A program made the position numbers and the translations under genes. From positions 193,175 to 257,174 of the forward strand of contig QPMI01000526.1 in assembly GCA_004431415.1 (NCBI GenBank): a stretch of 64,000 bases of DNA. The letters run 5' to 3'. Each line of letters begins with the position of its first letter. Positions within the stretch are counted from its first letter, which is position 1. Below are positions 10,263 to 43,604 of the stretch, in pieces. The stretch comes from Cyanophora paradoxa CCMP329 (lineage: Eukaryota; Plantae; Glaucophyta). Under the pieces are notes generated by a model. The model ran no database searches and was not told the origin of the DNA. It was given only the letters and a program-made list of their open reading frames with translations.

Positions 10263-11640
10263 AGCAAGAGAGGCGGCGCCCGCCGCGGCACGGGGCCGCG
10301 CCGGCGCGCGCCGGCGAACGCCAGGCACCAAGGCACCCACACGGGGCGGCGGAGGGAAGGGGGGGAAGGATCGAGCCGGGGTACGCCGCTGAGTCTCCAG
10401 GTGCGCCACTGGGCGCCGGAAGGCGCCAAGCACCAGGCACCCTGCGCCGGGTAGAGGTTGAGGGGCGGCTGCCCTGCGCTGGGTAGAAGGTGAGAAGGGG
10501 GGGGGGGGGGGAAGGGGAAGGGAGCGAAGGGCGAGCTGAGGGGGGTACGGATGCAGATGCACAAAGTCTCTCCGCAAGGGGTTCTGACGGGTTCCGAGGG
10601 GTACCGGCAGCGGCGAGGCCGGCGAGGGGTACCGGCAGCGGCGAGGGGAGGAAGGGCGCCGCGGTACGACGGAACGGGTCGCGGGTGGAAGGTTGGGAGG
10701 GGGTAGACAAGCTGTAGGGACGCGTTCCTGCGTGGGGCCCGAAATCTCAGCCGAAATCAACTCGCCTAGCCAGGGAGGGGGTACAGGGGCGCACCTTCCC
10801 GGGAGGAGGGCGGCGCCCGCGGCGGCGCAGGGCTGCGGTTGCGGGCGCCGGCGGGCGCGGGAAGGGGGGGAAGGATCGAGCCGGGGTACGCCGCTGAGTC
10901 TCCAGGTGCGCCACTGGGCGCCAAGCACCAGGCACCCTGCGCCGGGTAGAGGGTGAGTGTGTGTGTGTGTGTTGGGGGGGGGGGGGGAAGGGAGCGAAGG
11001 GGCGAGCTGAGGGGGGTACGGATGCAGACGCACATAGTCTCTCCGCAAGGGGTTCTAGATCTGACGGGTTCCGAGGGGTACCGACAGCGGCAAGGCCGGC
11101 GAGGGGTAACGGCAGCGGCGAGGCCGGCGTTCACTGCGCCAGCGGGGAGAGGAGGCCGGGGGAGGGTCGGTGCTGAGCCGCCCCCGACGGAAGTCGGAGG
11201 GAGGGGGCTCCGGGGGTACCGACGAGGGGGAATGGGGGGAGATGCGGAGAATGCTACCCTGAAGCACGACTGCCCTGCGCTGGGTAGAAGGTGAGAGGAG
11301 AGGAGGGGGCAGGGGAGGGGAGTGAGCGGAGGGGGGTACGGAGGCGCACGGTCTTTCATTCTGCGCGCGGCGAGGGCCGGAGGGGGCCGGCCAAGCGGGT
11401 TCCGAGGGGTATTGACAGACTGCGGCGAGGCCGGCGAGGGGGTACCGCTGCAGAGCAGGGAGCGGAAGCTGGGGCGGGGAGGGTCGGCCCTGGGCCGCCG
11501 CCGTCGGAAGAAGGGGGCTCCCAGAGGGTACGGAGGTTCCGACGACGAGGAGGACGCCCCGCGCGCCGCGCCGGAGATTCACTGGCGAGGGGCGGGGAGC
11601 GGAGGGCCGCGGCTGAGAGAACCGGGAGAGAAGTCCCGCC
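10040..11640. repeat. G-rich degenerate tandem repeat region, unit ~0.5 kb
   Basis: ggaaggggggaaggatcgagccggggtacgccgctgagtctccaggtgcgccactgggcgcc at ~10355 and ~10860; cctgcgctgggtagaaggtgaga at ~10473 and ~11274; poly-G tracts. Confidence 0.8.
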
Positions 11641-16700: not shown

Positions 16701-19390
16701 CAAGATCCGCGCCCTTCGCAACGCATCGTGCGCTGCTTTTTTAATTTTACAATTGCAAGTCCTTTCTCTGCGCTTATCGATATATTGAAGGCGCAAGCTC
16801 GTCCAAACGATCGTGAAGCAGGTTGCAACACCCGCAGCGTGGTTATTGTCTGCGTGCGGCTGATGCTTGCTGTTGCAGCTCCGCCCGGTTGGCTCCAAGG
16901 CTTCCAAGCCCATCGAAATCGAGGTAGGCGAAGCGGCGGATGTCTCCTGCTCGTCGCTCCGGCGTGAAGGAAGCCCTGCAGGTTGACCGGGCAGCCGTCG
17001 TCGAGTCCGCCCTCCAGTCCTGCCTGGAGCAGCGCCTCCTCGAGCAGCTGCGGCAGCCGGCCGCCCCGCTGAAGATTGCGATGGAGTGCGCCGAGGACCG
17101 CAAGGGGCCATCGCGCGAGTTCTATGCGCTGGTGTGGGATCGGAATTCCACGGGAATCTTTAATTTCTTCGTTCCTGTGGGCCTCATGATCGGAGTGTCG
17201 CCGCAGTTTTTCGAGGAGCTGGTGAAGAAGCAGCTGGTAGAGGAACCGATGCAGCGGGCGCCGGGCGTGCTGCCGCCGGCAAGCGTCAGCGCTAGCGCTG
17301 CACCGGTACCTGTTGTGCCGGCGCCGGCGCCGGCACCGGCCCCGCAGCCGCGCCGCAAGAGGACCGTCATCTTTGACTCGGAGGACGAGGGCGAGAGCGG
17401 CGAAGACGGCAGTAGCCCGCAGGGCGAGAATCCGAAGCGTGTTCGGCTGGAGGGAGGGCAGGCGGCAGCGTCGGGGTCGGGCGGCGGGCAGCGCCGGAGC
17501 GGGCGCGGCCAAATGAGCTCCAATTCGAAGCGTGCCAACGTCGTCGATCGCGCGCTGCTCACGAAGTACCGATTCATCGGTGCCATCATCGGCCGAGGTG
17601 CTCCCTCGTTCTTTATGGGGAAATCTATTTATGTGCCGATCTCATTAATTAATCTCATTTCTACTTTCTACTTGTGCCGAAAATCTACTTTTTAGGTGCT
17701 ACCTCGTTAATTTATTCGCCGATATCGATCGCGAGGCTTGCCTTGACGCCGTTCATTTTCAGCGCTGCTCGAGCGGATTCTCGACCCGAAGGGCACGGAT
17801 CCCATCCCGGCTGCGTTCGTCCCCATGATACCTATGCTGTCCGGCAAACAGGTGCGGGCAAGAATATTAATTCGGAAGTCCGCTTTCGTTCCTGGCTCTG
17901 ATCGCTGGCCCCGGCCCGCATGCGCAGCGGGACGCGTGCGCCACAGCGGAAGAGGCGCTCGCGCTCTGGCAGCCGTTCCTCGACCCCGTAAGCAATATAT
18001 ATTTGCATTCGAACCGGTACCCTTTTATGAACTTTTTTTGCGGGCGCTTCAACGCCGCCGCAGCAAGTGCACGTCTCGATGGCCAGGATCCTCGCCGAGC
18101 CGGTACGCGGCGCTGGTCACAGCCCCGCGCTAGATTGCTGCTGAAGTCTCTGCAGGTCTCGCCGGAGGCCCCCGTGCCGATGGACCCGTACCTCCAGGGC
18201 TGCCCCGCCTTCAGCGGCGAGGAGGTGCCTCGAGCTCGCCTCTCTAAGGTTAAGCTTTTCGCCGCTGACGTCCTGCAGCTGACGGAGGCGAACAAGCGAG
18301 ACCTCGTTCGGCTCGCGGCGCAGTGGCAGTGCGTAGGCCGGCGTCAGCCGCTCCTCGAGGCGATGCGAGTGCGTCGCGCTCGATTCGTCTTCAACCGTCT
18401 CTAAGCGTCGCCGTTCTCCGCCCGCAGGAGGGGTTCCAGGGCGTCTTCACGCGGCCGGAGGCGAGCAAGAAGGGCCCAGAGGCGGCGGCGGGCGCGGCGG
18501 ACGCGCTGGAGGCGGTCGGGCTGCTCGGCGCCGACGACTGGGCCGCCCTCGTCGGCGGTGCGCCGCCAACCGACCCCGCGCAGCGCGGCCCGCGCGCCCT
18601 CACGCCGCGCGCGCAGGCGAGGCGTGGACGGCCGAGACGCTCATCGCGAACGTGCACAACCGGCATCGCTTTGATTTTTTTCACTCGCTTCCATTCACAT
18701 GTCCGCTCTCAGATGCGATTCCACGGCGACTGGCGGCATTTCGAAGAGGTGAATGACGATGACGATGTCTTTGTCCTCAACTCGTGCCCTGTCCCCTCTC
18801 ACCCCGCGCGGCCCCTCCCGCCCCGCCCCGCAGGACCGGACCCTGGTCGAGCGGTGGCTCTTCGACGCGCTTCGGGCGGGCGAAGTGGACCCGTCGCAGT
18901 TCGCCCGCTGCATCGGTGCGGTTGCTCTTTCACGTCGTGCGGCGGCCGCTGCATGTGATTCGCGCTGCAGGCCGCGCCTCCGCGCCGGCGAGCGGGAAGC
19001 TCGAAAGGTGAGCTTTTCCAAGTTTAAACTTAGGTCATTTCATTGCCAGATTCATTAATATTCGTGGCCCCGCAGGCCCCTCACGATCGCGCCGAAGACG
19101 AACACGGTGAAGGACGGGGCCGGGCGCCGGCGGGCCGTGCTGGTGCCCTGGTCCGACAAGGAGTGGGGCCTCGCCTTCCGCACCTGCTTCGACGAGGCAC
19201 GCCCCGCCCCCCGCCGCCCCGCGCGCTCGCTCGGCCTCGCGGTTTGAACTTGGGGGGGCAGGTGGAGATCCCGGGGGTGCACGTGCCGTCGGGGGCGGCG
19301 GGGGCGGAGGAGCTCGAGGAGCGGCGGCGGCTTTTCGTGGGAGCAATCCGCAGGAGCGTCGATCTCGCGTTGGACTTCAACGACGGCTAG
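13720..19390 (+). CDS. Multi-exon host gene, copy B: coiled-coil plus divergent HECT-type E3 ligase (5' end uncertain)
   Basis: Paralogue of copy A with the same motifs REFY, YRFIGAIIGR, LTEANKRDLVRLA, FRTCFDE (Cys codon 19185-19187) and LDFNDG* (stop 19388-19390). Confidence 0.62.
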
Positions 19391-20025
19391 TTATATATAT
19401 ATAGTTTTAGTTTACATTCGAATTTCCTTTCAAAAACCTTTCAAAAACAGCGGGCCCCTACCTGCCCGCACCCTGCAGCTGCATCAGCTTTATTACGCTG
19501 CTCATTATTACCCTGCATCGCACCCTGCAGCTGCATCATCTGGTTTCTGTTCGAGATAGCTATAGACTCTACACAGGCAGCCCTGGCCATGGCAGAATTC
19601 AGACAGACTCAATAAATCCGAATGATTGTGCACACATGAACGCCTTTCTAACTTCCGACTTCGTATCAGAATCGACTTCATGGTGGCGGGGTGCGGGGGC
19701 GGGCGGGCCGGGGCGCTGGCCGAGGCATCGAGGGCGGCCGGAAGAGCGGCAGCGGCCTCTGGCGCCCTCGCTGAGCGCCGGCGGCCCCGCGAGCGGCGGG
19801 CGCCGTGCAGACTCCGGCGGGCGCCGCCCGTCGGGGGAGCGCCGCCAGAACGGAGTGAAGGGGCGGGAGGAGAGTGTGCCGGGGTACGGCGGCAGGGAGA
19901 TCTAGAGGATGCGCGCCGGGTAAGACGGGAGGGATCGGGGGGGGGGGAACGTTAGTAAGGGGTAGATAAGCTTTAGGGACGCATTCCTGCGCGGGGCCCG
20001 AAATCTCAGCCAAAATCGAATCGAC
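15555..20025 (+). repeat. Segmental duplication, copy B (partner ~5020-10262)
   Basis: Colinear with copy A, including introns and the 3' flank. Confidence 0.9.
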
Positions 20026-20026
20026 G

Positions 20027-20165
20027 AGGGGGGAGGGGCGGGGGGGAGGGAGGGGGAGAGGGGGGAAGCGGAGGTTGGAGGGGGGCGGGGGGTGAGAGAG
20101 GGGGAGGACGGAGAGGGGGAGGGGGGCGGGGGGGGGGGGGGGGGGGGGGGGGGCGGGGAGGAGGA
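20027..20165 (+). repeat. Poly-G / G-rich tract
   Basis: Nearly pure G runs, including one over 20 nt. Confidence 0.9.
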
Positions 20166-20480
20166 ACAAGTCTGAAAGGAAATGAAACTGAGAGGAATCT
20201 GAGCAGAAGGGATCGAGGTCTGTAAGGGTTTAATTAACCAGGAGAATAAGCGAAATCATGAGAGGGAACTAAAGCTTCATTATATATAAGGAGATTTGCA
20301 CGGACAGGATCGATAATTTAATTTGAGAAAAGAAAACATGTACGGAACGAACGTGAGTGGCGCGTGTTAATTGGAACGAAAAGGGAGCAGGCCGGACCCT
20401 CGCGATCGGACCGGAGTAGATTTGCGAGATCGACTTTCAGAAGCTGGCTTCTAACGTACCGTAGTAGTACGCCGCTGCTG

Positions 20481-20486
20481 GAGGCG
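20481..20486 (+). repeat. Left 6-bp target-site duplication GAGGCG of element 1
   Basis: GAGGCG directly precedes the left TIR and recurs at 31774-31779. Confidence 0.93.
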
Positions 20487-20843
20487 AAAAAATGTAAATT
20501 GGGCATACTGCCCCACGAAATTATATATGGTAATAAAATCGAATAAACTCTCATTTTTTCATGTTTTCAACAAACATTTCAACAAAACAAACCATTCTCA
20601 GTAACCCAATCACCAATCTCAGTAAATCTCAGTAAGCATCATTTACAAAATTCGATGTTATATCATTGGCATACTGCCCCACGAGATTATATATGGTAAT
20701 AAAATCGAATAAACTTTAAACTTTTCGATATTCCACAAACGTTTCGACAAAAACAAACCATTCACAGTAACCACACAAAACAAAACGTTTAATCTCAGTA
20801 AGCCTCAGTAACAACAATCGATGTTATATCATAATCTCGATTA
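20487..20843 (+). repeat. Left terminal inverted repeat (357 bp) containing two ~166-bp subrepeats
   Basis: Exact reverse complement of 31417-31773, compared line by line; ggcatactgccccacga..ttatatatggtaataaaatcgaataaact at 20502 and 20668. Confidence 0.96.
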
Positions 20844-20967
20844 ATTATATTTAATCGAAGTAACATCCTTTTTATCCGCCGTGTCTCCCATCAATTTTAA
20901 ACGTAATCGAATTTTACCCGATCCAAAAAATGACGACTGTTTTTAAATTTACCATATCGATCTGTAA

Positions 20968-21261
20968 ATGACAACCATAATACCCGAAGATGTTAAACAA
21001 ATTCTTCAAGATATGCCTTTAATTCCAGATGAGCAACAATTAAGCGAATTGATTGAGAAAACCGCTAATAGCGTTGGTTTAGATGTTAACAAACTTCCAA
21101 GTAAATATAAAACAAATTTTATGAAAGGCTTCGTATCTACCATGGAAACTTTGAACAGACACCAATACTCACAAATATTAGAAAATCGACATGATGTCAA
21201 CCATACACGCTGTAAATTACGTAGGAAATTGATTATGAAAAATGCAATGGACAAAAAATGA
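20968..21261 (+). CDS. Hypothetical viral protein, 97 aa
   Basis: ATG-initiated ORF just inside the left TIR with viral base composition; no motif recognised. Confidence 0.6.
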   Translation: MTTIIPEDVKQILQDMPLIPDEQQLSELIEKTANSVGLDVNKLPSKYKTNFMKGFVSTMETLNRHQYSQILENRHDVNHTRCKLRRKLIMKNAMDKK

Positions 21262-21282
21262 GTTTCAAACATTCCTTGTTAT

Positions 21283-22050
21283 CTAAACTGTTATTGTTGT
21301 GGGTTCATTACTTATTCTTACTGATTCTCTCTTTTTTATCGCTCTGCGCTTCACAAACTTCTTAAAGCCCTTTATATCATCATCTGTTAATATTGCCCGG
21401 TCTGTGTATACTTTTATATCATACCCTTGCAATCCAGTTATGACTGTTTGGTAGTTATAACCCCACAGTCTATGCAATTCCTTGTAGGTCTTTTTATCAA
21501 GACCCCCATTATACTCATCATAAGCGCAGTTAAACTCCTTCTCATTCCCGAGAATATTGAAAAATACTACGAACTCAACATTTCGACGAATCGTAGTAGA
21601 AATTGAGCATAAACGTTGAGTATTAATAATTACTGTAATCGAATAATGACGGGCTGTAGTGATCAATTTAGATAACACAGCCGAATTATGCATATCTAAA
21701 TTGGAACCGATCATATCATCAAGTATAATAACAAGATTGTTGCGTTTTTCATTATTTTCGATTCGTTTCTTTTGCATGCTAATGAGTTTCACTACTACAT
21801 TATCGTCCCATTCCTCATAGATATTATCAGGATGCGTTATATCTCTGAATTGACCTGTAAACGCAGTAGAACTAAATACTACAATCTGATCGATCTTATC
21901 CCTCAGTTCATAAAGTAGATATTTGCAGTAGGTTGTCTTACCAGAATTGCTGCGCCCACATAATAAAAACCGAGTGCTTAATTTAACTGTTCTTGCAGGC
22001 TCAAACTCCGGGATGTCATTCAAATCAATATCCATTCCTGTGTTATCCAT
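21283..22050 (-). CDS. A32-like (FtsK/HerA superfamily) genome-packaging ATPase
   Basis: Walker A GRSNSGKT, Walker B LVIILDD, A32 signature ARHYSITVIINTQ..IRRN. Confidence 0.93.
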   Translation of the reverse strand: MDNTGMDIDLNDIPEFEPARTVKLSTRFLLCGRSNSGKTTYCKYLLYELRDKIDQIVVFSSTAFTGQFRDITHPDNIYEEWDDNVVVKLISMQKKRIENNEKRNNLVIILDDMIGSNLDMHNSAVLSKLITTARHYSITVIINTQRLCSISTTIRRNVEFVVFFNILGNEKEFNCAYDEYNGGLDKKTYKELHRLWGYNYQTVITGLQGYDIKVYTDRAILTDDDIKGFKKFVKRRAIKKRESVRISNEPTTITV

Positions 22051-22096
22051 TACAGTAATAAGATAAAAAACAAAATAAATTACTCAGCGCATGCAA

Positions 22097-22116
22097 GGCA
22101 TGCTTGTCATGCCGAC
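22097..22116 (-). terminator. Conserved stem-loop downstream of the MCP gene (putative 3'-end signal)
   Basis: GGCATG-CTTGT-CATGCC-GAC; the same loop and GAC flank occur at five sites in element 2. Confidence 0.5.
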
Positions 22117-22160
22117 CCTACTAATTTTGAGCTTTCTACTATAACGAAAGAAAAAGAACT

Positions 22161-23386
22161 TTAGAAGTTCGAGACTTTCAGGGTAGAGATGTTGTAGCCA
22201 TTGAGGACCATAACATTGTGTCGTAGGGCATAGATATCAACCTGAACAGGAGCAGCATCAGTGCATCCCGAAACAGTGAGATCCATGTAACTGGAACTGC
22301 TGTTGAAGAAATCCTGGTAACCCATAACACTGTTCCGAAGCGAATCTTTTCCAGATTTGGAAAGAACGATTCCGTAAATATTTCCATTCTCGAATCCATA
22401 AGTAGTATTGCCAACAGTAACACCCTTGTAATGAGAAGGAATGTGATTGATAGCCGAGAGGAAACCAGAAATGGGTTTGTTGGAGATATCCAGGGAGCGA
22501 TTGTTGTGGAAGATCTGGAACTGATCGATCTTAACATCCGAAACATGACCACAGAAATCAGAGTGAGTGTAGGTGTTAAGTTTGTTCACCTCTCGAACTG
22601 TCATGAGAATCGAATGAACCAGACCAGAAACATTAGCGAGTGTCACCTCAACCGATTCACCAGCATCAGCGGTTTTGAGCGCTCGTGTCTTCTTGTGGAT
22701 GACCTCTGTGATCGGAATGCGAATGCCACCTTGTTCATTTGCCATTTTCAAAAGTGTCTCAGCCTCAGCCGAAGCGATGTTTACAAATTGACAGATTAGG
22801 GAGCAATCCGCAAATGTAACAGATCCACCAGCAGGAACTTTGACTATCCCAGCATCACGGAAATCAACCTCGATTGTTGGCATATCCGCCAGTGTGCATA
22901 GTGGGAAGTAAGCATCATCCCAGAAAGCAGCGGGAATTTTCACAATGTATTCCATAGCCTCATCTGTGCTTTCACGATCAAGTTCTTTGAAGTAACCAAG
23001 AGAAGCATACATGCTGCTCATGGTAGCATGATCATTATCAATCAGAGCGTTAACAGTTATCCAGTCACCAGGGATGATATACTTGAAACCACCATGAACA
23101 AAGCGGACCTCATTAATAAAGGAAGAACCACCATTGGGGAGGGTGCAGGCTACACCACCACCAGTGGCAATCTTGAAATAGAGCGAAACACCAGCAAGGA
23201 GTTGCTTGCGAGGTAGATCAAAGTAAGCGGTATTCTTAAAGCCAAAAGTATTGCCTCGGGGACGAACTTGCTCGAGGAATGGTTTGTACTTGGGGTTGGT
23301 TCCGATTTGGAGACCAGGGATAGATAAATTTGATCGGAACCGGGAGTTACGAGGAGTTCCTTAAGGGTAGTTCCAGTGAGTGCCAT
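22161..23386 (-). CDS. Major capsid protein (putative double jelly-roll), ~408 aa, with one -1 frameshift near 23325
   Basis: ATG 23386 gives MALTGTTLKELLVTPG. The adjacent frame is open from ~23360 through KYKPF..AYFDLPRKQLLAGVSL..YIIPGDW into ORF 22161..23021. It aligns by eye with the element 2 gene at 55602-56978, sits between ATPase and penton, and is beta-rich and of MCP size. Confidence 0.8.
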
Positions 23387-23438
23387 CTCTTATGTTTAAA
23401 ATACCAAAAGAAATTTTTAAAATGCTTTATTAAACAGA

Positions 23439-24338
23439 ATGACGCGTCATTACCTTAATATTGATTCCAGGGACCGAGATGATGGAACCCCAACGAACTT
23501 TACTTACAAAATTCCCCATGCAATCCAAAATGTGAGAGCCTGCAGAGTGACTAACTTTGAGATGTTCAATAACATTTACAATCTTAGCGAGAATGGAAGT
23601 TTGATTACAGGAACCTATGATGCTGGAGATGTAATTAAAACTAAGAATAACACTATTTCAAAAGGGACATATACTTCGGATAGTTTGGTGAATCTTCTAA
23701 ATGCCAAACTAGCTTCACAAGTGTATGGTGCAGCAGGAACTACCTATACTCGCCATTTCTACGTTACATATGATCCTGTCACCATGTTTCTAAGGTTTAT
23801 GTGCGATGCAACATTTACCCTCACCTTTGGAAGTCGGATCTTAGCAAACTTCCTTGGATTTCCAGAGCGCAGACCTGACAGTTCAGAAAATGGTTACGCT
23901 TCTGCCCTGCTGGATTCACCTGTAAAACTCGGAACTAATACTTATAATTACTACATTGACAGCGTTATACCGCTTGATCTTCTGTTCAACTCTTACATCC
24001 TTCTACATGTCGATCCACTCAAAGGCAATTATGTTAGCAAGAATACCAGTGATGATAAAGCCCTCGCAAAAATCGAGATTGATCAAACGGTAGGCAGTCT
24101 CTTAAAATATGATTCATCGAATAATTCCATGATCCTGCATGAGCAAAACGGTTTGGTGGAAGTTGAAACGCTAAAAGTTCGTCTCACATACTGGAATGGT
24201 GTTGAAACGGATATTACCACTGACTGGTCGATGACGCTTGAACTCATTACGGAAGATGATAAAGATCTGACCAAGAAAGCATTGAAGAATGTCATTAAAG
24301 AGTTGGAGGGACTCTACTTGCCGTTCTCACGGTCATAG
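23439..24338 (+). CDS. Minor capsid (penton) protein
   Basis: N-terminal YLNIDSRDRD..NFTY..IQNV..N.IYN and C-terminal LKVRLTYWNG..DWSMTLEL, typical of PLV/NCLDV single-jelly-roll pentons. Confidence 0.85.
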   Translation: MTRHYLNIDSRDRDDGTPTNFTYKIPHAIQNVRACRVTNFEMFNNIYNLSENGSLITGTYDAGDVIKTKNNTISKGTYTSDSLVNLLNAKLASQVYGAAGTTYTRHFYVTYDPVTMFLRFMCDATFTLTFGSRILANFLGFPERRPDSSENGYASALLDSPVKLGTNTYNYYIDSVIPLDLLFNSYILLHVDPLKGNYVSKNTSDDKALAKIEIDQTVGSLLKYDSSNNSMILHEQNGLVEVETLKVRLTYWNGVETDITTDWSMTLELITEDDKDLTKKALKNVIKELEGLYLPFSRS

Positions 24339-24374
24339 GAAATACTGTAGAATAAATTTGTCTCAATATTACAA

Positions 24375-25124
24375 ATGGCAACTCGAAAGACCCAACCAAA
24401 GAATTTCTTAGCCAAACCAGTTGAGCAAGCGGAACCAGAACGGAAACAGTTTAAGAAATCAAAAGGAACCGCTGCATATGGAACTGGTGATCTCGATAAA
24501 AATGTTCACCAGACCATGAATGCTCACACAATTGCGCTTACTTCAAACTCAAATGATGATAATGCCCTGGTTGACCAAGTCCCACTGAACCGCATGCCTG
24601 GAGCCAAACGAGGAATCAAGAAAGGACAGTTCAAATCATCGACAAAGGACAAGGTTGCCTCATCATCAACACTGCTGAAACTGCTTGATGGTGGTGAGCG
24701 ACTCTACTCAACCTATTCCGAGAAAGACCATCGCAACCGCTATTTTATTCGTTCAACCACTGGTGGACTGAAATCTGTGACATACCAGTATGCTAAGAGT
24801 CTTGTTGATGGCATTGCAGTAGAGACCAAAAACGAAAACAAGATCAAGGAACAGCCAATCACAAAGGAAAAGGTTGAGAAGAAACCAGAAGTAACCCATG
24901 AAGTCATCCCTGAACCTGTTCATGTCGTGAAAGAATCACCAGCCGAATTGATTGCAAAGACCATCGATTATCAAGAGTCCAACAAAACGGATTTGCCGGT
25001 CCTCAATAAATCGATCCTCCGGGTTGCCACTTCGCAGGCTGATCCAGTCAACTCGATTCCAAATGCTGCCCCAATGGTCTCAGGGTTTGCCAAGCTCGGT
25101 ATTAAACCTGGTTATCGCCGTTAA
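24375..25124 (+). CDS. Hypothetical Lys-rich viral protein, 249 aa (possible core/DNA-condensing protein)
   Basis: Intact ORF after the penton; basic composition; no catalytic motif seen. Confidence 0.7.
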   Translation: MATRKTQPKNFLAKPVEQAEPERKQFKKSKGTAAYGTGDLDKNVHQTMNAHTIALTSNSNDDNALVDQVPLNRMPGAKRGIKKGQFKSSTKDKVASSSTLLKLLDGGERLYSTYSEKDHRNRYFIRSTTGGLKSVTYQYAKSLVDGIAVETKNENKIKEQPITKEKVEKKPEVTHEVIPEPVHVVKESPAELIAKTIDYQESNKTDLPVLNKSILRVATSQADPVNSIPNAAPMVSGFAKLGIKPGYRR

Positions 25125-25488
25125 GGGACGGCTCACGCATCATTTCCGAATTAAAAAAATCTTGAACATTGTTAGCGCTACGTAACCATTCTTATCCCGT
25201 AGGCTCAAAACTTCTTCATTTTTATGGAGGCGTTGTAGAGCGAAGTGAATTATCCACAGATATCACTTTAATCACCCGTTCTACCGGGTTCAGTGGTAGA
25301 AACTTGCATCCGACAAGTGAACCTTTTTGGGTATCGGTGGCTTTATCATTTTTCCAGCATCTTCTTTCGTACTGGATGCAATGCGATTGGGACCAAAAAT
25401 TGATTGGGTTCTCACAAAGAATATATACACGACATAAAAACTACTTAAAGATTTCTTAACTTATATTAAGAGAGTAGAAAGGACAAGA

Positions 25489-25752
25489 ATGACGATCACA
25501 GAAGCCCAAAAGAAAGCAACTTACCGCTACCGTAAAACAGAAAAGGGTATGTTAGCGCTTGCTAGGATTAATGAGAAACGCAATGCAAAATGGAGCGAAC
25601 TCTATAACAATGATGAAGAATTCAGACAAGCTCACATAATGACTTCATGCAAGGCTCAATATGTAAATAACACCATTCTCTATGTAAAGTATCTATTTGA
25701 CGTTCCTCATACCAACCGTGGACGTCCATCAAAGTATGTTAATGCTTGTTAA
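25489..25752 (+). CDS. Small basic putative DNA-binding protein, 87 aa, with C-terminal AT-hook-like RGRP
   Basis: TEAQKKATYRYRK..YNNDEEFRQAH..RGRPSK; related to the element 2 ORF at 59294. Confidence 0.65.
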   Translation: MTITEAQKKATYRYRKTEKGMLALARINEKRNAKWSELYNNDEEFRQAHIMTSCKAQYVNNTILYVKYLFDVPHTNRGRPSKYVNAC

Positions 25753-25984
25753 TCGTTTTTCTCAGCGCGATTGCTCTGAGAACCCGCGGAAACCGCGCTG
25801 GAAGCAAAACTATAAATCTTTCTGTTATTTTTAGAGTTCGATGATCGAGCCAACCCTTTGTTATTTTTATGAATGCCCTCGACTGAATTAATTTTGTTGG
25901 AGACTTTTGGTTTTGCCGGTAAAATTTGACGCGAGTATAAAATGACTTAAGGAAATAAAATATAGAGTATATATAAAAGTGAAA

Positions 25985-28900
25985 ATGCCTCGCGCAGTAA
26001 GTATTCAGAATGCTAGAAAGAGACAAGGAATGTTAGCAAAGCTTGGTTACCTTCTTGGTGCTGGAATCATAAATGAAGAGCAATTTAACGCATTGGGTTA
26101 CTTTGCATTTATTAAGAGACTTCGATCTGCTGGTCTGAAGGACATAAGCGATACAATTGATGGTATTATTGCCAGGGGTGAAGGGAGACTGAATGAGCAG
26201 GATGAAATCGAGAGATTCGGTAACATTGAGGCTATTGAAGGTGGAAATAAGAAGACCAAAGCAGAGCGGGTCGCTGAAAAACGAAACAAGAGAGCTGAAA
26301 GAAAGCAGCAGAAGAAGCAGAAGAAAGCGGGTAGAACCGCTAAGAATGTTGAGAAGCAGAAGGTTAGAGAAAGAATAGCAAAGGAGGCGAAGAAACAGAG
26401 AGAGGATGAGAAGAAACAACGAGAGGAGGCAGAGGTAATGCAGGCTATGAATAATCTCGTGAGTGAAGTTACTTGGAGGAACCAGACCAAAGATAACATC
26501 GCTTCTGCCCATGAGTTTATTGATAGGGTTGTTCGTTGGGATCCCTTCTACAATCGTTTTCGAGATGCTCTTCGTAACAGACGAGGTATTAAGTATAACC
26601 TCTACAGCATGGCGAGATATGTGAAAGTGGCAACTGGAGAAATAAGAACCATGCAATGGACCACCCCGTTCTACCTTATTGTCAATGATCAAGAGATTGT
26701 TGATACTGTTGATGAATCAATTGATGCATTGCAGGAGGTTCTTACTTCACCTGATAGTTGGAAGCTAGAAAACATCTTAACAGTTCGCTTGCAGATTCTC
26801 ACATATCAGCCACTTGCTGGTAGCTCCTATATTGACCTCCCACCAGGAATCAAAAAGCGTAAAGCAGTGATCAATCCACAGAACAAAGATAATAAATGCT
26901 TTGCATGGGCGGTATCTATTGGACTGCATCAACATGAGCTATCTCATAAACACCGATATGATGTTAAACGCTACAAGAAGTATGAGAATGAGTTCAATTG
27001 GAATAAGTTTGAGTTCCCATTCAAGAATGATCCTCGTCAGTACGAACGAGCATCAAAAATGATTGGTCGACCAATCAATGTGTATATGGTCGATCGATCA
27101 CATATTGTTCCTGTACATATCTGCAAGGACCCTTCCAAGCAACATCTAACAATTGACATTCTTCTGTGGACTGTCAACGAGAAAACCCACTATGGTTACA
27201 TTTCTAGCATGTCAAGATTGATATCAAATTCACACCATGGAACTCGTCACTTCTGTAAAGCTTGTTTGAGAGGGTTCACCAGTGAAACGGTATTGGAGAC
27301 CCACATTAAACACAACAAGTGTTACGATCGACCAAATGCAACAGTTGACACAATGCCACCAAGCGGATCTAAGACCAAGTGGGACCCAAAGAGATATGTT
27401 GACAAGACTGTATGGCATCCAATGTTTGTTGTTGCTGACTTTGAATGTATATTGCAAAAGGTGGATGAGACACGAGGTGAAAACACTGCAGTCTACCAGA
27501 AGCACATTCCCAGTGGATACAAGATAATGGTGATCCACAACAATGAGATTATTAAACAGGTATTGTATCGAAAGGAGAACCCAGAGAACGATGATGATGT
27601 TACACAGCACTTTATGGAGACACTGAAAACGATTGAATCCGATTTACTTGAGAAGCTAAGACATGTTGCCCCAATGGTTATGGAACAATGGCACAAAGAG
27701 GATTATAGAGATTCTGTTGCTTGCTACATCTGCGGAGATGAGTTTGGATCTACTGTAACCGATGATAATGGTAACACATATCAAGTTAAAAAGGTTAGAG
27801 ACCACGACCACGTTACAGGAGATTACATTGGAGCAGCTTGCAATACTTGCAATCTGAAACGAAAGATCAATCCAAAGATCCCAGTTGTGTTCCACAATCT
27901 AAAAGGTTACGATGGACACTATATTCTGAAGGCTTTGAATTTCAATGAACCTGGCAAGGAAATGCGTTGCATTGCCCAGAATTTTGAGAAGTTCATAGCA
28001 TTCGATATGGGACCATACAAGTTCATGGACTCTTTGAATTTCATGGCTTCGAGCCTTGATGGTCTGGTAAAGAATCTCAGTAAGAATAATTTCAAATTCA
28101 CCAATGAGTGGTGTGATTCTGTAAATTATTCACAGGAACAGCGAGAGCTACTGATGCAAAAGGGACACTTCCCTTACGATTACCTGGATAGCTTCGAGAA
28201 ACTCAGTGAGACCCAATTACCTCCCAAAGAAGCTTTCTACTCGAAACTCAATGATACTGAATTGAGTGATTCCGACTACAAGCATTGCCAGATGGTATGG
28301 GATGCTTTCAACTGCAAGACTCTCGGAGATTATCACGATATCTATCTTGCTACTGATGTTGCTCTGCTTGCTGACGTTTTCAATACATTCCGCAATGTTT
28401 GCTACAGTAATTATAAGATCGATCCAATTCATTTCATTTCAGCTCCTCACCTGTCTTGGTTCGCAATGTTGAAATATACAGGTGTGGAGTTGGAGCAATT
28501 GAGCGACCCTGAAATGTATCGATTCTTTGAGCTTGGAATTCGTGGAGGTGTTTGCATGGTTCCCAATCGTTATGCAGAGGCTAATAACCCCTACATGAAG
28601 TCTTATGATCCATCAAAGTCAACAAAGTATATCACAACTTGGGATGCCAACAATCTGTATGGGAAAGCGATGAGTTTCAAGCTACCCAGAGGTGGATTTG
28701 AGTGGATTGATGACATCGAGAATTTTGATTACATGGGCTTTGATGTGGAAGGTGATAGAGGCGCAACTTTGGAGGTTAACTTTGAATATCCAGAACACCT
28801 ACATGATCTTCACAGTGATTTACCCCTTGCTCCCGAATCTCTTATAATCACCAAGTCTATGATATCACCAACACAACTTGAAATGATTGGTGATGAAAAA

Positions 28901-29947
28901 CTACCCCAGACTCGTAAGTTGGTTCCCAATCTGATGGACAAGACCAATTACATCCTACACATCAAAAACTTGCAGTACTACATCTCAAAAGGATTGAAGG
29001 TAACAAAGGTTCATCGTGGGATTATGTATGATCAATCCGAGTGGTTGAGACCATACATTGATTTCAATACCGTACTGCGGACGCAAGCTCGTAACGATTT
29101 TGAGAAAGACTTCTACAAACTCATGAATAACTCAGTTTTCGGAAAGACCATGGAGAACGTTCGCAAGCGAAGTAACATAAAGCTTTGCAACGATCCGAGG
29201 GTGCAGCTCAAACACAACAGCAATCCGTTGTTGAAGACAGTGAAGATTATCAATGAGAATCTTACTGCTTTAGAGTTCTATAAGGGTTCTATAATGTTGG
29301 ATAAACCCATTTATGTTGGTCAGGCTATCTTGGATCTGTCCAAACTAATCATGTATCGTTTCCATTACGATTACATCATGGTGAAGTATGGACCTGGATC
29401 AGCCAAGCTCCTCATGACTGATACAGATTCCCTGTATTATCTGATTGAGACTGATGATATCTACAAAGACATGATTGAGGATTCTCATTGGTTTGATCAG
29501 TCTGATTACAACAAATCCCACATCTGTTACAACCCTAAAAATAAAAAGGTTCCAGGTTTGTTCAAGGATGATTGTGGTGATTATCTCGTCACAAGGTTTG
29601 CAGGCTACAAACCAAAAGCATACTCCTACGAGAAGGAGTTGAATGTTAAGGCTCTTGGTCTTGAAGTTGCTGGTGATACAAAGACTGTGAAGAAGTTGAA
29701 GGGAGTTCAGAGGAATGTTGTTCAGAATAAATTGGAGTTCCAACAGTTCTACAACACTGTCATGAACCCCCAGGTTCAGCAAGAATCTGTAACAGTTAGA
29801 GGCTTCCGATCAAAGAACCACGAGGTAACAACGCAGGAAATGAAGAAAAGGGCATTTAATGCGCTCGACACTAAGCGGTATCTTTGTGAGGATCTCTATA
29901 CGACTCTTGCGATTGGACACTATAAAACAAAAACGACACTATTATAA
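25985..29947 (+). CDS. polB: Protein-primed family B DNA polymerase with N-terminal TP/vOTU-like region, C2H2 finger and endonuclease VII-like insertion
   Basis: NKDNKCFAWA..THYGYI; CKAC..H..C; ExoI ADFE; VRDHDHVTG..GAACNTCN; FHNLKGYD; KGHFPY; motif A WDANNLYG, motif B KLMNNSVFGK, motif C TDTDS; first ATG at 25985. Confidence 0.97.
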   Translation: MPRAVSIQNARKRQGMLAKLGYLLGAGIINEEQFNALGYFAFIKRLRSAGLKDISDTIDGIIARGEGRLNEQDEIERFGNIEAIEGGNKKTKAERVAEKRNKRAERKQQKKQKKAGRTAKNVEKQKVRERIAKEAKKQREDEKKQREEAEVMQAMNNLVSEVTWRNQTKDNIASAHEFIDRVVRWDPFYNRFRDALRNRRGIKYNLYSMARYVKVATGEIRTMQWTTPFYLIVNDQEIVDTVDESIDALQEVLTSPDSWKLENILTVRLQILTYQPLAGSSYIDLPPGIKKRKAVINPQNKDNKCFAWAVSIGLHQHELSHKHRYDVKRYKKYENEFNWNKFEFPFKNDPRQYERASKMIGRPINVYMVDRSHIVPVHICKDPSKQHLTIDILLWTVNEKTHYGYISSMSRLISNSHHGTRHFCKACLRGFTSETVLETHIKHNKCYDRPNATVDTMPPSGSKTKWDPKRYVDKTVWHPMFVVADFECILQKVDETRGENTAVYQKHIPSGYKIMVIHNNEIIKQVLYRKENPENDDDVTQHFMETLKTIESDLLEKLRHVAPMVMEQWHKEDYRDSVACYICGDEFGSTVTDDNGNTYQVKKVRDHDHVTGDYIGAACNTCNLKRKINPKIPVVFHNLKGYDGHYILKALNFNEPGKEMRCIAQNFEKFIAFDMGPYKFMDSLNFMASSLDGLVKNLSKNNFKFTNEWCDSVNYSQEQRELLMQKGHFPYDYLDSFEKLSETQLPPKEAFYSKLNDTELSDSDYKHCQMVWDAFNCKTLGDYHDIYLATDVALLADVFNTFRNVCYSNYKIDPIHFISAPHLSWFAMLKYTGVELEQLSDPEMYRFFELGIRGGVCMVPNRYAEANNPYMKSYDPSKSTKYITTWDANNLYGKAMSFKLPRGGFEWIDDIENFDYMGFDVEGDRGATLEVNFEYPEHLHDLHSDLPLAPESLIITKSMISPTQLEMIGDEKLPQTRKLVPNLMDKTNYILHIKNLQYYISKGLKVTKVHRGIMYDQSEWLRPYIDFNTVLRTQARNDFEKDFYKLMNNSVFGKTMENVRKRSNIKLCNDPRVQLKHNSNPLLKTVKIINENLTALEFYKGSIMLDKPIYVGQAILDLSKLIMYRFHYDYIMVKYGPGSAKLLMTDTDSLYYLIETDDIYKDMIEDSHWFDQSDYNKSHICYNPKNKKVPGLFKDDCGDYLVTRFAGYKPKAYSYEKELNVKALGLEVAGDTKTVKKLKGVQRNVVQNKLEFQQFYNTVMNPQVQQESVTVRGFRSKNHEVTTQEMKKRAFNALDTKRYLCEDLYTTLAIGHYKTKTTLL

Positions 29948-29949
29948 GG

Positions 29950-31008
29950 ATGGATCAGGTTTTGAGTTACACCAAGTATCGACAGAAATTGATTAAAGAA
30001 GGTGTCACATTTGATGAGGAAGAACTAAGAAAGCGTTTTAAAAATCAAGAGATTGAGCAGATCTTTAAAAAGCCCAGAAAGCAAAAGTCTTTCTTGCGGA
30101 TCGTTGCTCCACCCAATTCCTTTCAGGTTGATGTGATTTATTTCAAAAGCTACAAGACAGCAACACATGGAGTGGATAGGATGATGGGATTTGTCGATAT
30201 ATTGAGTCGGAAAGCATTTGTATACCCTTTCAAGCCAAAGGATTCGAAAATCGATATTTTCAACAGGTTCAAAGTTGAGGCAGGCAAGGTTAGTGCTATC
30301 TCAGGAGACAATGAGTTCTCTGCTGAGATTTATAGGAAATGGTGTGAGGAAAACAATGTAACTCTTTACACTGATGTAGCTAAGAATGACCACATCACAG
30401 TAGGTGATAAACTTGGTATTATTGATAGGTTTACCAGAACTTTCAAGCAATATTTGAGAAAAGCAATAGTTTCGAGTGGGAACCCCAAATGGACAGATTA
30501 TTACAAGGAAGTTCTTTCAACTTATAACAACAGCCCACACACATCACTTAAGAATGATCCTCCCAATGCAGTTTACGGGAATAACGAGAAAGAATCGTTT
30601 ATATATTTGCGTGATGCATTGCATAATAAGCGTGTTAAAGAAGGTAGCCCAACAGTAAAGGAGGGAGATTATGTTCGAGCTGTAACTGAAAAGAAGACTT
30701 TCGATAAAGAAGGAGCAAGATACAGCAAACAGGTGTATAAAGTAGCAGGCAAGGTAGGTAATCGATTCAGTTTGTTGGAAGAGAATGAGGGAGAGAGTCC
30801 AAAAGAAGTGAAACGAAACTTTAAACTGAACGAGTTGCAAAAAGTAGATAAGGCAGCAATTGTTAAGATTCCCACACAGAAGCGTGTGGAGCGAGTGAAA
30901 AAAACAACAAAGGTGAATAGATTAGTAGCAAAAGAGGGTATCAAGCCCAATAGGAGCAAAGTAGTTAGGAAGAGGTATAATTTAAGAAGCGGTTTGACTA
31001 GGCGTTAG
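29950..31008 (+). CDS. Retroviral-like (rve) integrase
   Basis: FQVD, VDILSRKAF, SGDNEF, GIIDRFTRTFK, YNNSPHTSL, and a Polinton-type C-terminal GDYVR..FDK..YS..VY. Confidence 0.93.
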   Translation: MDQVLSYTKYRQKLIKEGVTFDEEELRKRFKNQEIEQIFKKPRKQKSFLRIVAPPNSFQVDVIYFKSYKTATHGVDRMMGFVDILSRKAFVYPFKPKDSKIDIFNRFKVEAGKVSAISGDNEFSAEIYRKWCEENNVTLYTDVAKNDHITVGDKLGIIDRFTRTFKQYLRKAIVSSGNPKWTDYYKEVLSTYNNSPHTSLKNDPPNAVYGNNEKESFIYLRDALHNKRVKEGSPTVKEGDYVRAVTEKKTFDKEGARYSKQVYKVAGKVGNRFSLLEENEGESPKEVKRNFKLNELQKVDKAAIVKIPTQKRVERVKKTTKVNRLVAKEGIKPNRSKVVRKRYNLRSGLTRR

Positions 31009-31367
31009 GTTGTAAGGTATGAGCCATCTTTCGATTCAACAATTTTCGTGATAGGTCTAAACACTTTGAAAATTTCTTTATTATGGATTCCTTTAACATA
31101 CCAACCCTTATTAATGGGATCCCATCTGAGACCATAAGATTTCGCTAATTGGATATCTTTGAAAGCAACTTGACAATACATTTTAACATTAATGTATTTG
31201 ATTTCGTCTTCGGTTAGTTTTCGGAATTCTTTGAAGATCTCACTGTTTTCATCTTCAACAAACCATAGCTTCTTTTCAAAATCCCATTTTGCGCCTTTTG
31301 ATTTCACGGATTCACGATCATCATATCGAGAGAAAATGTAAAAGCGTTGTTGTGGCTTGGTTTCCAT
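31005..31367 (-). CDS. Protein with two DUF5710-like repeats
   Basis: YDDRESVKSKGAKWDFEKKLWFV and FKDIQLAKSYGLRWDPINKGWYV. Confidence 0.75.
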   Translation of the reverse strand: METKPQQRFYIFSRYDDRESVKSKGAKWDFEKKLWFVEDENSEIFKEFRKLTEDEIKYINVKMYCQVAFKDIQLAKSYGLRWDPINKGWYVKGIHNKEIFKVFRPITKIVESKDGSYLTT

Positions 31368-31416
31368 TTTTATTCAGATTATCAGATTATTTTTATATGA
31401 AACAATCAATGAGGAA

Positions 31417-31773
31417 TAATCGAGATTATGATATAACATCGATTGTTGTTACTGAGGCTTACTGAGATTAAACGTTTTGTTTTGTGTGGTTACTGTGAAT
31501 GGTTTGTTTTTGTCGAAACGTTTGTGGAATATCGAAAAGTTTAAAGTTTATTCGATTTTATTACCATATATAATCTCGTGGGGCAGTATGCCAATGATAT
31601 AACATCGAATTTTGTAAATGATGCTTACTGAGATTTACTGAGATTGGTGATTGGGTTACTGAGAATGGTTTGTTTTGTTGAAATGTTTGTTGAAAACATG
31701 AAAAAATGAGAGTTTATTCGATTTTATTACCATATATAATTTCGTGGGGCAGTATGCCCAATTTACATTTTTT
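31417..31773 (-). repeat. Right terminal inverted repeat (357 bp) of element 1
   Basis: Reverse complement of 20487-20843. Confidence 0.96.
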
Positions 31774-31779
31774 GAGGCG
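31774..31779 (+). repeat. Right 6-bp target-site duplication GAGGCG
   Basis: Matches 20481-20486. Confidence 0.93.
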
Positions 31780-31863
31780 TGCGGTGGCTTTGCATGAATG
31801 CGCCCCGCGGCGCCGCGCCGATATCATAATTAACCACGACCGGCCGCGGGAATTCGAATTCGA

Positions 31864-34406
31864 ATGAAGTGGGCCGATCCGTCCGCGTTCCTCGTCGGCA
31901 GCGCCGTGCTCGGCGGCGTCGTCGTCTTCATCGCGCTCGTCGACAAGCCCATCCGCAACAGCTTCTTCTTCACAAACGTGCTCCGCCTTCTTCCCTAGCC
32001 GGCACGCACGCGCGGGCCGGGAGAGAGCTCGAGAGTCGCCTCTGCGGTCTCTCTGACTCTGCACGGGATTTCGAAGATAATGGTGGCGACGGTGGCGGGA
32101 ATCGTCGTCTCGCCTCTCGTCTCGCGGCTGATCGACCTCGGCGGCGACTTTGGCAGCAATTTCTGGCCGGTCGCCGAGAGCGTTTCTCGGTTTCTCGTTA
32201 ACAGTGAGATATTCAGACGATCAATGCGCAAGATGAATTTCTGAAGTATACGCGCAGTGCAGCTCATCGCCACGGCGGTTCGGCTGCCGCACGATTATGT
32301 GGCGAGCACGCTTGAATTTTAATTTCGCACCTCACCTTGAAAGTTTTTGCTCTAACCACTGTAGTTCCCATATATACTCATACTTGCAGAACAGATGACG
32401 CATTGGAGCTCCCTCGCCATTGTCCGTGCGGTCTTATCTAAGCTTCGTATTCAGATGTAAAGTTAATTAGATTAGATTAAATCTTAGCTCCTTCTTCGAG
32501 ATCAAATTGAAAGGGGGCAGATGATGCTGGTCGTGATGCCCTTCATGTGGGTCGCGTCGTCCTTCCTCCTCTACGGTTCGAATCTGCTGGAATCGCTTCG
32601 TACTTAAGATCGGAGAATTGCTTTGATTACTTTGTGCTTACGGTCGTCGTGACGACGGCCGGCCGCCGGCGCCAGCGATCCTGGACGTGGGGGTCTGGGG
32701 GGCGCTGCTGATCGGGGGCGCGGTGACGCCGACGGACCCCGTGCTCGCCTCGACGCTCATGAGCGGCGACCTCGCCGAGAAGCACCTCCCCGTGAGCCAT
32801 AGATCTCGAGCTCCTCGAAATCGAAGACTGGGATCTAGATCCTGGCGCCCGAGTTCGAAGATCGAGATCTGGGCGCCCGGCGGAAGTGTATCTAGAACTG
32901 GATCTCGACGCCGAGCAGGGCCTCAGAATAGAAATTTGAGCTGGCTCTTCATAAGATGAGCCAGCTCCGTATACGTTTCCAGCTGCTTCCGGATTCAACT
33001 CAAGATCCGGATCGGGCGCTGGGCAGAAGTCCCTCAGGAATCTGATCCAGGCGGAGTCCGGGATCAACGACGGGCTTGCGTACCCCTTCGTCTGGCTCCC
33101 CCTCGCCGTCCTCCTGCACGAGGACAAGGGCTACGCGGCGGGGACCCTCTGGTTCGCCCACGTCATCCTGTACGAGGTCCGAACTCTAGATCGAAAAGCG
33201 TATTGTAATATATAAATTAAACAGCGATAGCACCAACAGCTCAATAGCACGAACAGCCTTTTGCAAAAACATTATCGATAGCACGAACAGCGTCGACGCT
33301 AGCGCTAGCGCAATCAGAGCATATATAACTGATCTTTCAATCGTCTTGGTCTCGTTCTAGATCTCTCCCTCTCCCTCTCGCCGAGCTCGAGCCGGGGCGC
33401 GGGCAGGTCTGCGTGGGGGCGCTGCTGGGCGCGGCTCTGGGGGCGGCGCTGGGCTTCGCCGTCCGCTGCGCCTCCCGCCGCCAGCTCGTCCTCGAGGACG
33501 CCTTGTGCCCCTCTGCTTTCCTTATCCGGCCCTCTTACGTATACAATATAATATAATATAGTGCCTCGCGACCTAATAGAATAAGTCACGAGATAGGCTT
33601 AATCTCGAGCTCATCATTCATCACGACCGCTCTAATTCAAGTACCGCCCCTCACTAAGAAGGATCTTAAGGACCATAAACAATGAAACCTGAAGGACCGC
33701 TCTAAACCTCACGATTATATATCCAATCACCATAAAATTAGCGGGCAGCACTGCGGCATGTCGATGTACGTGACGGCGGGCTTATATAATTAATTATAAG
33801 GACCATATGTATAAAAAATCAAACCTTAAGGACCGCTCTAAACCTTAAGGACCTCAAGGACCGACGTACTTAAGGTCGGGGGCCGGGCAGCATGTCGATG
33901 TACGTGGCGGCGGGGCTGTGGGTCTACGGCGTCGCCGGCCTCGTCGGCGTCAACGACTTCCTCGCCGTGCGTCCGCCCCCCCCCCCCCCCCCCCCATCCC
34001 TTCCCCCTCCCCCCTTGTGCGCAGCGCCCCGCCGACAACAAACGATCGGCTTTGAATTAGTTCATCGGCGATCACTGAATTAGATCATCGGCGATCCAAT
34101 AACATTAATGAAACGACTGGCCTCGAATTGATTCTCGGCGATCCGATTGATGGTCGCCGTGGTCGCCGATCGAATGATCGATTACTATTTCGAGTTATTT
34201 TGCGATCATTGAGCTCAGCGTCATTTCGATTCGCTTTCTCCTCCTCGGGCGTTGACTCTTTAATTTCTTAGCGTTCGATTATCGACTTTAGCTTCGAGTT
34301 CCCCCTATATAAAATATATATGTATAGTTATAATCTTGCGGGGTCGGCCCCCGGGCCAGGTCTTCGCGGCGGGCCTGGCAATCTCCTGGCTCCAGGGGCC
34401 CCACGG
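31864..34406 (+). CDS. Host Nha1/Sod2-like CPA1 Na+(K+)/H+ antiporter, 5' exons only (interrupted at ~34547)
   Basis: Exons: MKWADPSAFLVGSAVLGGVVVFIALVDKPIRNSFFF | IMVATVAGIVVSPL.. | QLIATAVRLPHDY | HWSSLAI | MMLVVMPFMW.. | GALLIGGAVTPTDPVLAS | AESGINDGLAYPF | VCVGALLG.. | ..GVNDFLA | VFAAGLAISW. TPTDPVLA and ESGxNDG are CPA1 signatures. Confidence 0.88.
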
Positions 34407-43347: not shown

Positions 43348-43604
43348 TCTAGACGATATTAATGTGTACAATGAAGCTATCAGAGGAAACACGTTTAGCT
43401 TAATTTTAGGCGAAAATGAAGTGTACATCGAAGCTAACAGAGGAAACACGTTTAGGTTAATTTTAGGCGATATAGATGAGTACGATGAAGCTAACAGAGG
43501 AAGCACGTTTAGGTTAATTTTAGGCGAAATGATGAGAACATTGAAGCAACCAGAGGAAAAGCGTTTAGCTCTATCTAGGCGATATGAATGAGTACATTGA
43601 AGCA
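43348..43604. repeat. 56-57-bp tandem repeat, ~4.5 copies, probably subterminal repeat of element 2
   Basis: gaagc..cagaggaa...cgtttag...taggcga recurs at 43373, 43430, 43487, 43543 and (partial) 43599. Confidence 0.88.

What the first reader, a model, noticed from the sequence alone, without database searches (positions are those of the whole stretch)
20481..31779. Complete, compact and apparently recent endogenous Polinton-like virus (11.3 kb)
Seen: perfect 357-bp TIRs, a perfect 6-bp TSD, and nine genes covering replication (pPolB), integration (rve) and morphogenesis (ATPase, MCP, penton), all intact except one frameshift in MCP. Known: Polintons/Mavericks make 6-bp TSDs, are usually ~15-20 kb or more and encode a cysteine protease. 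Inference: a minimal, possibly inducible provirus of an undescribed or poorly sampled lineage.
Basis: partly seen in the sequence, partly recalled or inferred. Interest (0 to 1): 0.85.

Follow-up and report, generated by a model that had tools for sequence, protein, structure and literature searches.

The report
Minimal Polinton-like provirus in glaucophyte alga
An 11.3-kb, nine-gene DNA virus sits integrated, with perfect ends, in the genome of what is very likely the alga Cyanophora paradoxa; it is a small and likely intact member of a many-copy virus family whose coat protein was already catalogued but not classified.

Summary
In detail: 357-bp identical TIRs, a GAGGCG target duplication, 11,287 bp, nine ORFs. 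The capsid protein folds as a double jelly roll closest to giant-virus capsids. ATPase, rve integrase and pPolB are supported, the penton only weakly, and no protease was found. A near-identical capsid is listed for Cyanophora paradoxa in Bellas et al. 2023 (supplement), with 366 capsid hits in two new, unnamed clusters. So the lineage is catalogued, though I found no description or classification of it. The capsid frameshift lies in a homopolymer, and essentially all short-read contig depth across it carries one more base, so it is likely an assembly error. Depth suggests roughly 7-12 copies of this replication module and several times more of the capsid module, which elsewhere joins other sequence. 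Small size and a missing protease are both on record for PLVs. Inducibility is untested. The scan noted sibling Polinton-like viruses elsewhere in this genome, but not this sequence. Verdict: a real, small member of a known kind, from an unclassified host-restricted lineage.

The parts
20481..20486 (.). Left target-site duplication GAGGCG
20487..20843 (+). Left TIR, 357 bp; begins with six A; holds two 166-bp subrepeats (20502-20667, 20668-20833)
20968..21261 (+). 97-aa ORF, no function assigned; lower contig depth than the capsid genes
21283..22050 (-). A32-like DNA-packaging ATPase, 255 aa, Walker A and B present
   Evidence: Pfam Pox_A32 E 2.6e-14; alignment
22161..23386 (-). Double jelly-roll major capsid protein; one frame break at 23317-23319, likely an assembly error
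   Evidence: model pLDDT 65.8, pTM 0.73; Foldseek PBCV-1 E 1.6e-17; VIA Z 28.9, rmsd 3.2, 341 aligned; near-identical entry in PMC10120064 Table S2
23439..24338 (+). Likely penton (minor capsid protein), 299 aa
   Evidence: profile A3 hits PBCV-1 P1v1 at E 0.0014, and 4 of its 8 hits are penton-type; window-only profile hits only P1 and P1v1 at E 0.45 and 1.1; not folded
24375..25124 (+). 249-aa ORF with a basic N-terminus, no family; possibly a core or cement protein (inference from position)
25489..25752 (+). 87-aa basic ORF, no function assigned
25985..29947 (+). [quoted passage not shown]
   Evidence: 7,324 of 7,993 scored candidates at E<=1e-50; 42% identity over 1162 aa to P0002, which hits PF03175; tree
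29950..31008 (+). rve-type integrase, 352 aa; acidic triad D61, D120, D159 (third position E, N, E in three relatives)
   Evidence: 27% to three IMG/VR proteins that hit Pfam rve; profile hits Ty1-type and foamy-virus integrases from E 4e-8
31005..31367 (-). 120-aa ORF with two DUF5710 repeats
   Evidence: Pfam E 2.1e-15; also beside pPolB-rve in L002
31417..31773 (-). Right TIR, 357 bp
31774..31779 (.). Right target-site duplication GAGGCG
   Evidence: contigs run from the TIR end into the flank without differences in X1, X5, X9

Best explanation
This is a complete, integrated Polinton-like virus, very likely of the alga Cyanophora paradoxa and likely intact, that would copy its linear genome with its own protein-primed polymerase, insert with its rve integrase and package DNA into a double jelly-roll capsid. 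Shown: ends, 6-bp duplication, gene set, capsid fold, many related copies. Inferred: the integrase made the 6-bp duplication; the A6 ends and the polymerase's N-terminal part serve protein priming (recalled phi29/adenovirus model); the ATPase fills a capsid of MCP and penton without a virus-encoded maturation protease. It has no RNA polymerase and no recognisable fibre. It most likely lies silenced by host CpG methylation and needs an outside trigger, most probably a co-infecting giant virus (about 45%, against 30% autonomous and 25% genome-bound). It is one mosaic type of a family: the capsid module is several times more common than this pPolB-rve module.
For: Ends and genes. Capsid fold. Integrase. 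Polymerase. Host: near-identical MCP from C. paradoxa in PMC10120064 Table S2; homologue P0122 is a C. paradoxa EukProt protein and is 72% identical to the second capsid gene in this window. Frameshift: contig depth carrying one extra base equals all depth at 23321 in X2 (7779.4) and X5 (1914.6), and is 1944 of 1952 in X9. Copies: polymerase contigs at depth 554, 450, 337 against 83, 38, 31 for the right flank; depth falls about fourfold at about 26 kb, with loose ends at 25403, 25431 and 25955. Methylation of virus-derived genes and giant-virus insertions in C. paradoxa: PMC12344493 passages. Giant-virus activation of other endogenous PLVs: passage.
Against: No particle, free linear genome or transcript of this copy was seen: 0 of 183 contigs laid from the guessed-RNA run X15 are 99% alike or better. 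The left junction was not among the listed pieces (table cut). Right-junction contigs hold only 30, 30 and 14 viral letters, under the tool's 31-letter rule for bridging. The listed polymerase contigs differ from this copy by about 3% (75 of 2351 letters in X1), so this copy's interior was not confirmed letter by letter. Contigs drop rare variants, so a true frameshift in this one copy is not excluded. Summed contig depth is no true copy number. Nothing here ties the element to a giant virus. The penton call is weak.
Confidence: 0.8

Rival explanations
1. An autonomous temperate virus that is transcribed by host RNA polymerase II in the nucleus and needs no giant virus.
For: It carries its own polymerase, integrase, ATPase and capsid genes. 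Short pieces of a related capsid gene reach depth 11,000-16,000 in the guessed-RNA run X15. TsV was first described as a lytic nuclear virus (passage).
Against: Those pieces are 31-50 letters long, come from a paralogue, and the run's RNA status is a guess. No fibre gene is recognisable. Most characterised PLVs need a giant virus (passages).
Confidence: 0.3
2. A genome-bound self-synthesising transposon, or a defective copy that borrows capsid, fibre or lipase functions from larger siblings.
For: Frame break in the MCP as assembled. A larger sibling in the window has fibres, a patatin and two penton-like genes that this one lacks. No close relative in IMG/VR or JGI metagenome pattern scans.
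Against: The other copies keep the frame open at the break, and capsid, penton and ATPase are all retained. The pattern scans find close relatives only.
Confidence: 0.25
3. An assembly mosaic of several near-identical copies placed between real flanks.
For: Many-copy family; no listed contig spans the element. Bellas et al. warn of false consensus and frameshifts in such loci.
Against: Matching 6-bp duplication on both sides, identical TIRs, right-junction sequence in three runs, and an interior that differs from the majority contigs rather than averaging them.
Confidence: 0.07

Closest known systems
Cyanophora paradoxa endogenous viruses of Bellas et al. 2023 (PMC10120064; MCP clusters 21 and 29 of Table S4, marked 'new')
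   Same: MCP about 96-97% identical by eye over about 300 residues to the Table S2 entry from QPMI01000512 (HHpred 97.2% to an ascovirus MCP); same host; many copies (272 + 94 hits).
   Different: That work lists capsids and counts. In the four of seven main-text parts that I read I saw no description of gene content, size or class for these clusters. Which of the two clusters holds this MCP I could not see (Table S5 cut); cluster 29 and the blank group names are my count of columns.
Polintons/Mavericks and Gosseviruses (Polintoviricetes)
   Same: pPolB followed by rve integrase, TIRs of some hundred bp, 6-bp duplication, A32 ATPase, DJR capsid, penton. The polymerase is about 40% identical to invertebrate Polinton polymerases; IMG/VR contig L002 has the same DUF5710, pPolB, rve set.
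   Different: No protease found; 11.3 kb against 15-20 kb; MCP shows no similarity to the likely capsid of L002 and has no animal hits.
Polinton-like viruses without protease (Aquintoviricetes and unclassified groups; cryptophyte and Halocafeteria PLVs)
   Same: Three-gene capsid module without protease, capsid fold nearer giant-virus MCPs than Sputnik or mavirus, mosaic replication modules, low GC against the host.
   Different: About half the median size (medians 19-29 kb); nine genes; capsid with only five sequence relatives at 24-27% identity among 1.84 billion representatives.
Mavirus-type virophages (Virophaviricetes)
   Same: pPolB, rve, TIRs, integration in a GC-rich protist genome; possible model for induction.
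   Different: No protease, no separate helicase; capsid matches Sputnik and mavirus at Z 17.0 and 16.3 against 28.9 for PBCV-1.

Membership tests
Polinton-like viruses in the broad sense (Polisuviricotina) | Double jelly-roll MCP | tested here: met
   HHpred row
Polinton-like viruses in the broad sense (Polisuviricotina) | A32-like packaging ATPase | tested here: met
   Pfam Pox_A32 E 2.6e-14
Polinton-like viruses in the broad sense (Polisuviricotina) | Minor capsid protein (penton) | tested here: inconclusive
   Profile hits to PBCV-1 penton-type proteins at E 0.0014 and E 0.45-1.1; no fold made
Polinton-like viruses in the broad sense (Polisuviricotina) | TIR-bounded genome with replication and integration genes | tested here: met
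Polintoviricetes (Polintons/Mavericks, Gosseviruses) | pPolB plus rve integrase, 6-bp duplication | tested here: met
Polintoviricetes (Polintons/Mavericks, Gosseviruses) | Adenain-like maturation protease | tested here: not met
   No protease hit in any of the nine ORFs or five gap frames; the protease-like protein of L002 does not match the 249-aa ORF. A protease too divergent for these scans is not excluded.
Polintoviricetes (Polintons/Mavericks, Gosseviruses) | MCP in the Mavpol or GKS1 clusters | tested here: inconclusive
   No reference profiles on hand. Bellas Table S4 puts Cyanophora capsids in clusters 21 and 29, outside the GKS1 columns and, by my column count, not labelled Mavpol; no match to the L002 capsid
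Aquintoviricetes (TsV, PgVV, Dino groups) | MCP or ATPase grouping with TsV/PgVV-type references | not testable with these tools
   The curated MCP profiles and reference sets were not available; ATPase relatives were not recovered
Virophaviricetes (virophages) | Virophage-type MCP | tested here: not met
   Z 17.0 (rmsd 4.3) Sputnik and 16.3 (rmsd 4.8) mavirus against 28.9 (rmsd 3.2) PBCV-1; Cyanophora has no hits in the virophage columns of Table S4
Virophaviricetes (virophages) | Dependence on a giant virus | not testable with these tools
   Needs a culture experiment

The most novel reading that the evidence does not exclude
The Cyanophora capsid family is a deep, unclassified lineage of small DNA viruses with giant-virus-like capsids. 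This nine-gene form is among the smallest self-sufficient jelly-roll DNA viruses of eukaryotes, and the family is active in laboratory culture (a sibling capsid gene at extreme depth in a guessed-RNA run). It would be a cultivable virus system of glaucophytes, in which an integrated Polinton-type element could be caught making particles.
Probability: 0.25. Interest if true: 0.7.

Novelty: new member of a known kind. Interest (0 to 1): 0.4.

Why it matters
Whether integrated pPolB-rve elements make virions, and what wakes them, is open for most lineages (passages). A likely intact nine-gene copy with unique flanks, in an alga that can be kept axenically, is a simple test object. It also shows how little such a virus may need (no protease, fibre or separate helicase). 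As a class of object it is ordinary: hundreds of such capsids are already counted in this host.

Tried and rejected
No whole genome was held, so copies could not be counted or aligned directly. Single-sequence fold of the MCP failed (pLDDT 30.8). Word-index search with the MCP: 0 of 4,222 candidates; with alignment A1 only its own member P0126. Of the 6 hits I dropped P0124, a repeat protein, as spurious. Pattern scans found no relatives: IMG/VR with MCP, ATPase, integrase and TIR, JGI metagenomes with MCP; phage records with the integrase. These reach close relatives only. The protein Atlas gave no answer. No RNA holder is on record, which is no evidence on expression. Empty allele: not seen; the X1 joint 19712 to 31798 has a 23-letter side and does not sit at the duplication, so I rejected it. 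Programmed -1 frameshifting in the MCP: rejected, because the other copies carry the extra base. No Rfam family in 20000-32500. The TIR start folds only modestly (z -2.6) and is not a terminal palindrome. The polymerase tree (quick method; 36 of the 120 listed hits, three IMG/VR rows and the window) has no named reference classes and a long query branch, so it does not classify. A promoter-motif comparison was not completed. Literature: six searches gave no paper devoted to Cyanophora PLVs; subscription papers, bioRxiv supplements and the cut part of the Bellas tables were not seen and may describe or class this element.

Full report
Observation. The element runs from 20487 to 31773 (11,287 bp). 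Its 357-bp TIRs are identical, and GAGGCG flanks both ends. It is 39% GC in 62-64% GC surroundings. Each TIR starts with six A and holds two 166-bp subrepeats. Nine ORFs fill about 85% of it.

Genes. The 255-aa ORF is an A32-like ATPase (Pfam E 2.6e-14). The 1320-aa ORF is a protein-primed PolB: 7,324 of 7,993 scored candidates passed E 1e-50, the best at 40-50% identity, and the named ones are invertebrate proteins. Its catalytic motifs read intact in the translation (motif names recalled). In a quick tree of 40 rows it groups with four unnamed proteins, apart from the named animal rows, on a long branch. The 352-aa ORF has no Pfam hit. It aligns at 27% with three IMG/VR proteins that hit rve, keeps D61 and D120, and has D at the third catalytic position; the joint profile finds retroelement integrases from E 4e-8. 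The capsid frame, folded on six sequences, gave pLDDT 65.8 and pTM 0.73. It matches PBCV-1 capsid (Foldseek E 1.6e-17; Z 28.9, rmsd 3.2, 341 aligned) better than Sputnik or mavirus (Z 17.0, 16.3). The 299-aa ORF is likely the penton, on weak profile evidence. No protease was found in the ORFs or gap frames. The 97-, 249- and 87-aa ORFs are unassigned; the 120-aa ORF has DUF5710 repeats, as does a gene beside pPolB-rve in L002.

Host and prior record. Earlier scan notes named Cyanophora paradoxa for this genome, and I tested that. Table S2 of Bellas et al. 2023 (PMC10120064; I read parts 1-4 of 7 of the text and parts of the supplement) lists a C. paradoxa capsid that differs from this one at about 10 of about 300 residues by eye. 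Table S4 counts 366 capsid hits in that genome in two clusters marked 'new': 272 in cluster 21 and 94 in cluster 29 by my count. One of five credible homologues among 1.84 billion representatives is a C. paradoxa EukProt protein, 72% identical to a second capsid gene in this window. Cyanophora PLVs also appear in passages and tables of PMC12220804 and one is discussed in bioRxiv 10.64898/2026.10.13.758929 (parts 1-4 of 5 read). bioRxiv 10.64898/2026.06.19.733378 (parts 1-3 of 5 read) does not mention Cyanophora in its main text. Six searches found no paper devoted to this family. The lineage is therefore catalogued but, as far as I could see, neither described nor classified.

Reads. Fourteen DNA runs of one organism hold half or more of the sampled words. 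In X1, X5 and X9 contigs pass from the right TIR end into the flank with no differences, though with only 30, 30 and 14 viral letters; the left junction was not among the listed pieces, and no empty site was seen. Polymerase contigs have depth 554, 450 and 337 against 83, 38 and 31 for the flank, roughly 7-12 copies. They differ from this copy by about 3%. Capsid-region depth is several times higher, and contigs leave the sequence at 25403, 25431 and 25955. The capsid module is thus shared with elements that continue differently, in line with published module swapping. These depths are rough and are not true copy numbers.

The frameshift. The break lies in a three-base homopolymer run at 23317-23319. 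All five listed DNA contigs that cross it carry one more base. Depth with the extra base equals all depth at 23321 in X2 and X5, and is 1944 of 1952 in X9. A single-copy variant would be expected near depth 38 in X5 and 31 in X9. An assembly error is the likeliest cause, a known problem in such loci, but contigs can drop rare variants.

How it likely works. Inferred from the families involved: the polymerase, primed by a terminal protein at the A6 ends, copies a linear genome; the integrase inserts it with a 6-bp stagger; the ATPase packs it into an MCP-penton shell. With no RNA polymerase it needs host or giant-virus transcription. C. paradoxa methylates and silences virus-derived genes and carries giant-virus insertions (PMC12344493 passages). 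Several PLVs are woken by giant viruses, so I favour a silent provirus with giant-virus induction (about 45%) over an autonomous virus (30%) or a genome-bound element (25%). None of this was shown here. No contig of the guessed-RNA run X15 matches this copy at 99% (0 of 183). Short pieces of a related capsid gene reach depth 16,000 in that run, and one of their loose ends also occurs in DNA runs X5 and X9: a weak hint that a sibling is active.

Comparison. It works like a Polinton (pPolB, rve, TIR, 6-bp duplication) but fails the protease feature and has a different capsid, so I do not file it in Polintoviricetes. It is not a virophage by capsid. Protease-less capsid modules are typical of many PLVs. 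At 11.3 kb it is about half the median PLV length in cryptophytes and ochrophytes (19-29 kb), but TIR-bounded PLVs of 6.8-12 kb are listed there; whether those are gene-complete I did not check.

Verdict. A real, complete and likely intact small PLV from an unclassified, apparently host-restricted capsid lineage already counted in print. New member of a known kind; interest 0.4.

Noticed in passing
window 43300-64000: A second, larger low-GC virus of the same broad family runs off the window's end: MCP in two frames (55602-56978; 72% to C. paradoxa P0122, 24-29% to the first MCP), broken ATPase, two penton-like genes, patatin, fibre-like genes (one with an S74 chaperone), HNH-AP2, rve pieces and pieces of a different PolB-like gene. 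Many frame breaks, possibly assembly errors too. 57-bp tandem repeats mark its left end (43350-43585).
   Followed up: partly
window 23196-23318, run X15: 31-50-letter contigs of a paralogous capsid gene at depth 11,000-16,000 in a run guessed to be RNA; the same variant is at low depth in DNA run X5. A possible sign of an expressed sibling virus.
   Followed up: partly
window 25125-25488: The 364-bp gap between the 249-aa and 87-aa ORFs differs from the majority contigs by small indels (25258-25261, 25326-25327) and has loose ends; it may hold a small tenth gene broken in this copy, or a module junction.
   Followed up: no
window 20487-20494 and 31766-31773: The ends read A6 then TG, and CA then T6: a retroviral-type TG...CA sits six bases inside the integrated ends, so this integrase would not trim back to the CA.
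   Followed up: no
window 35093-42085: A broken non-LTR-like retrotransposon on the minus strand, with endonuclease and RNase H domains, lies between the two viruses.
   Followed up: no
window 5967-10264 and 16061-20028: A dispersed repeat of several kb occurs twice about 10 kb apart (78-95% identical); the virus is inserted about 450 bp beyond the second copy.
   Followed up: no
L002:842-14955: An IMG/VR contig with the same DUF5710, pPolB, rve set but an unrelated likely capsid and a protease-like gene: the replication module pairs with different capsid modules.
   Followed up: partly
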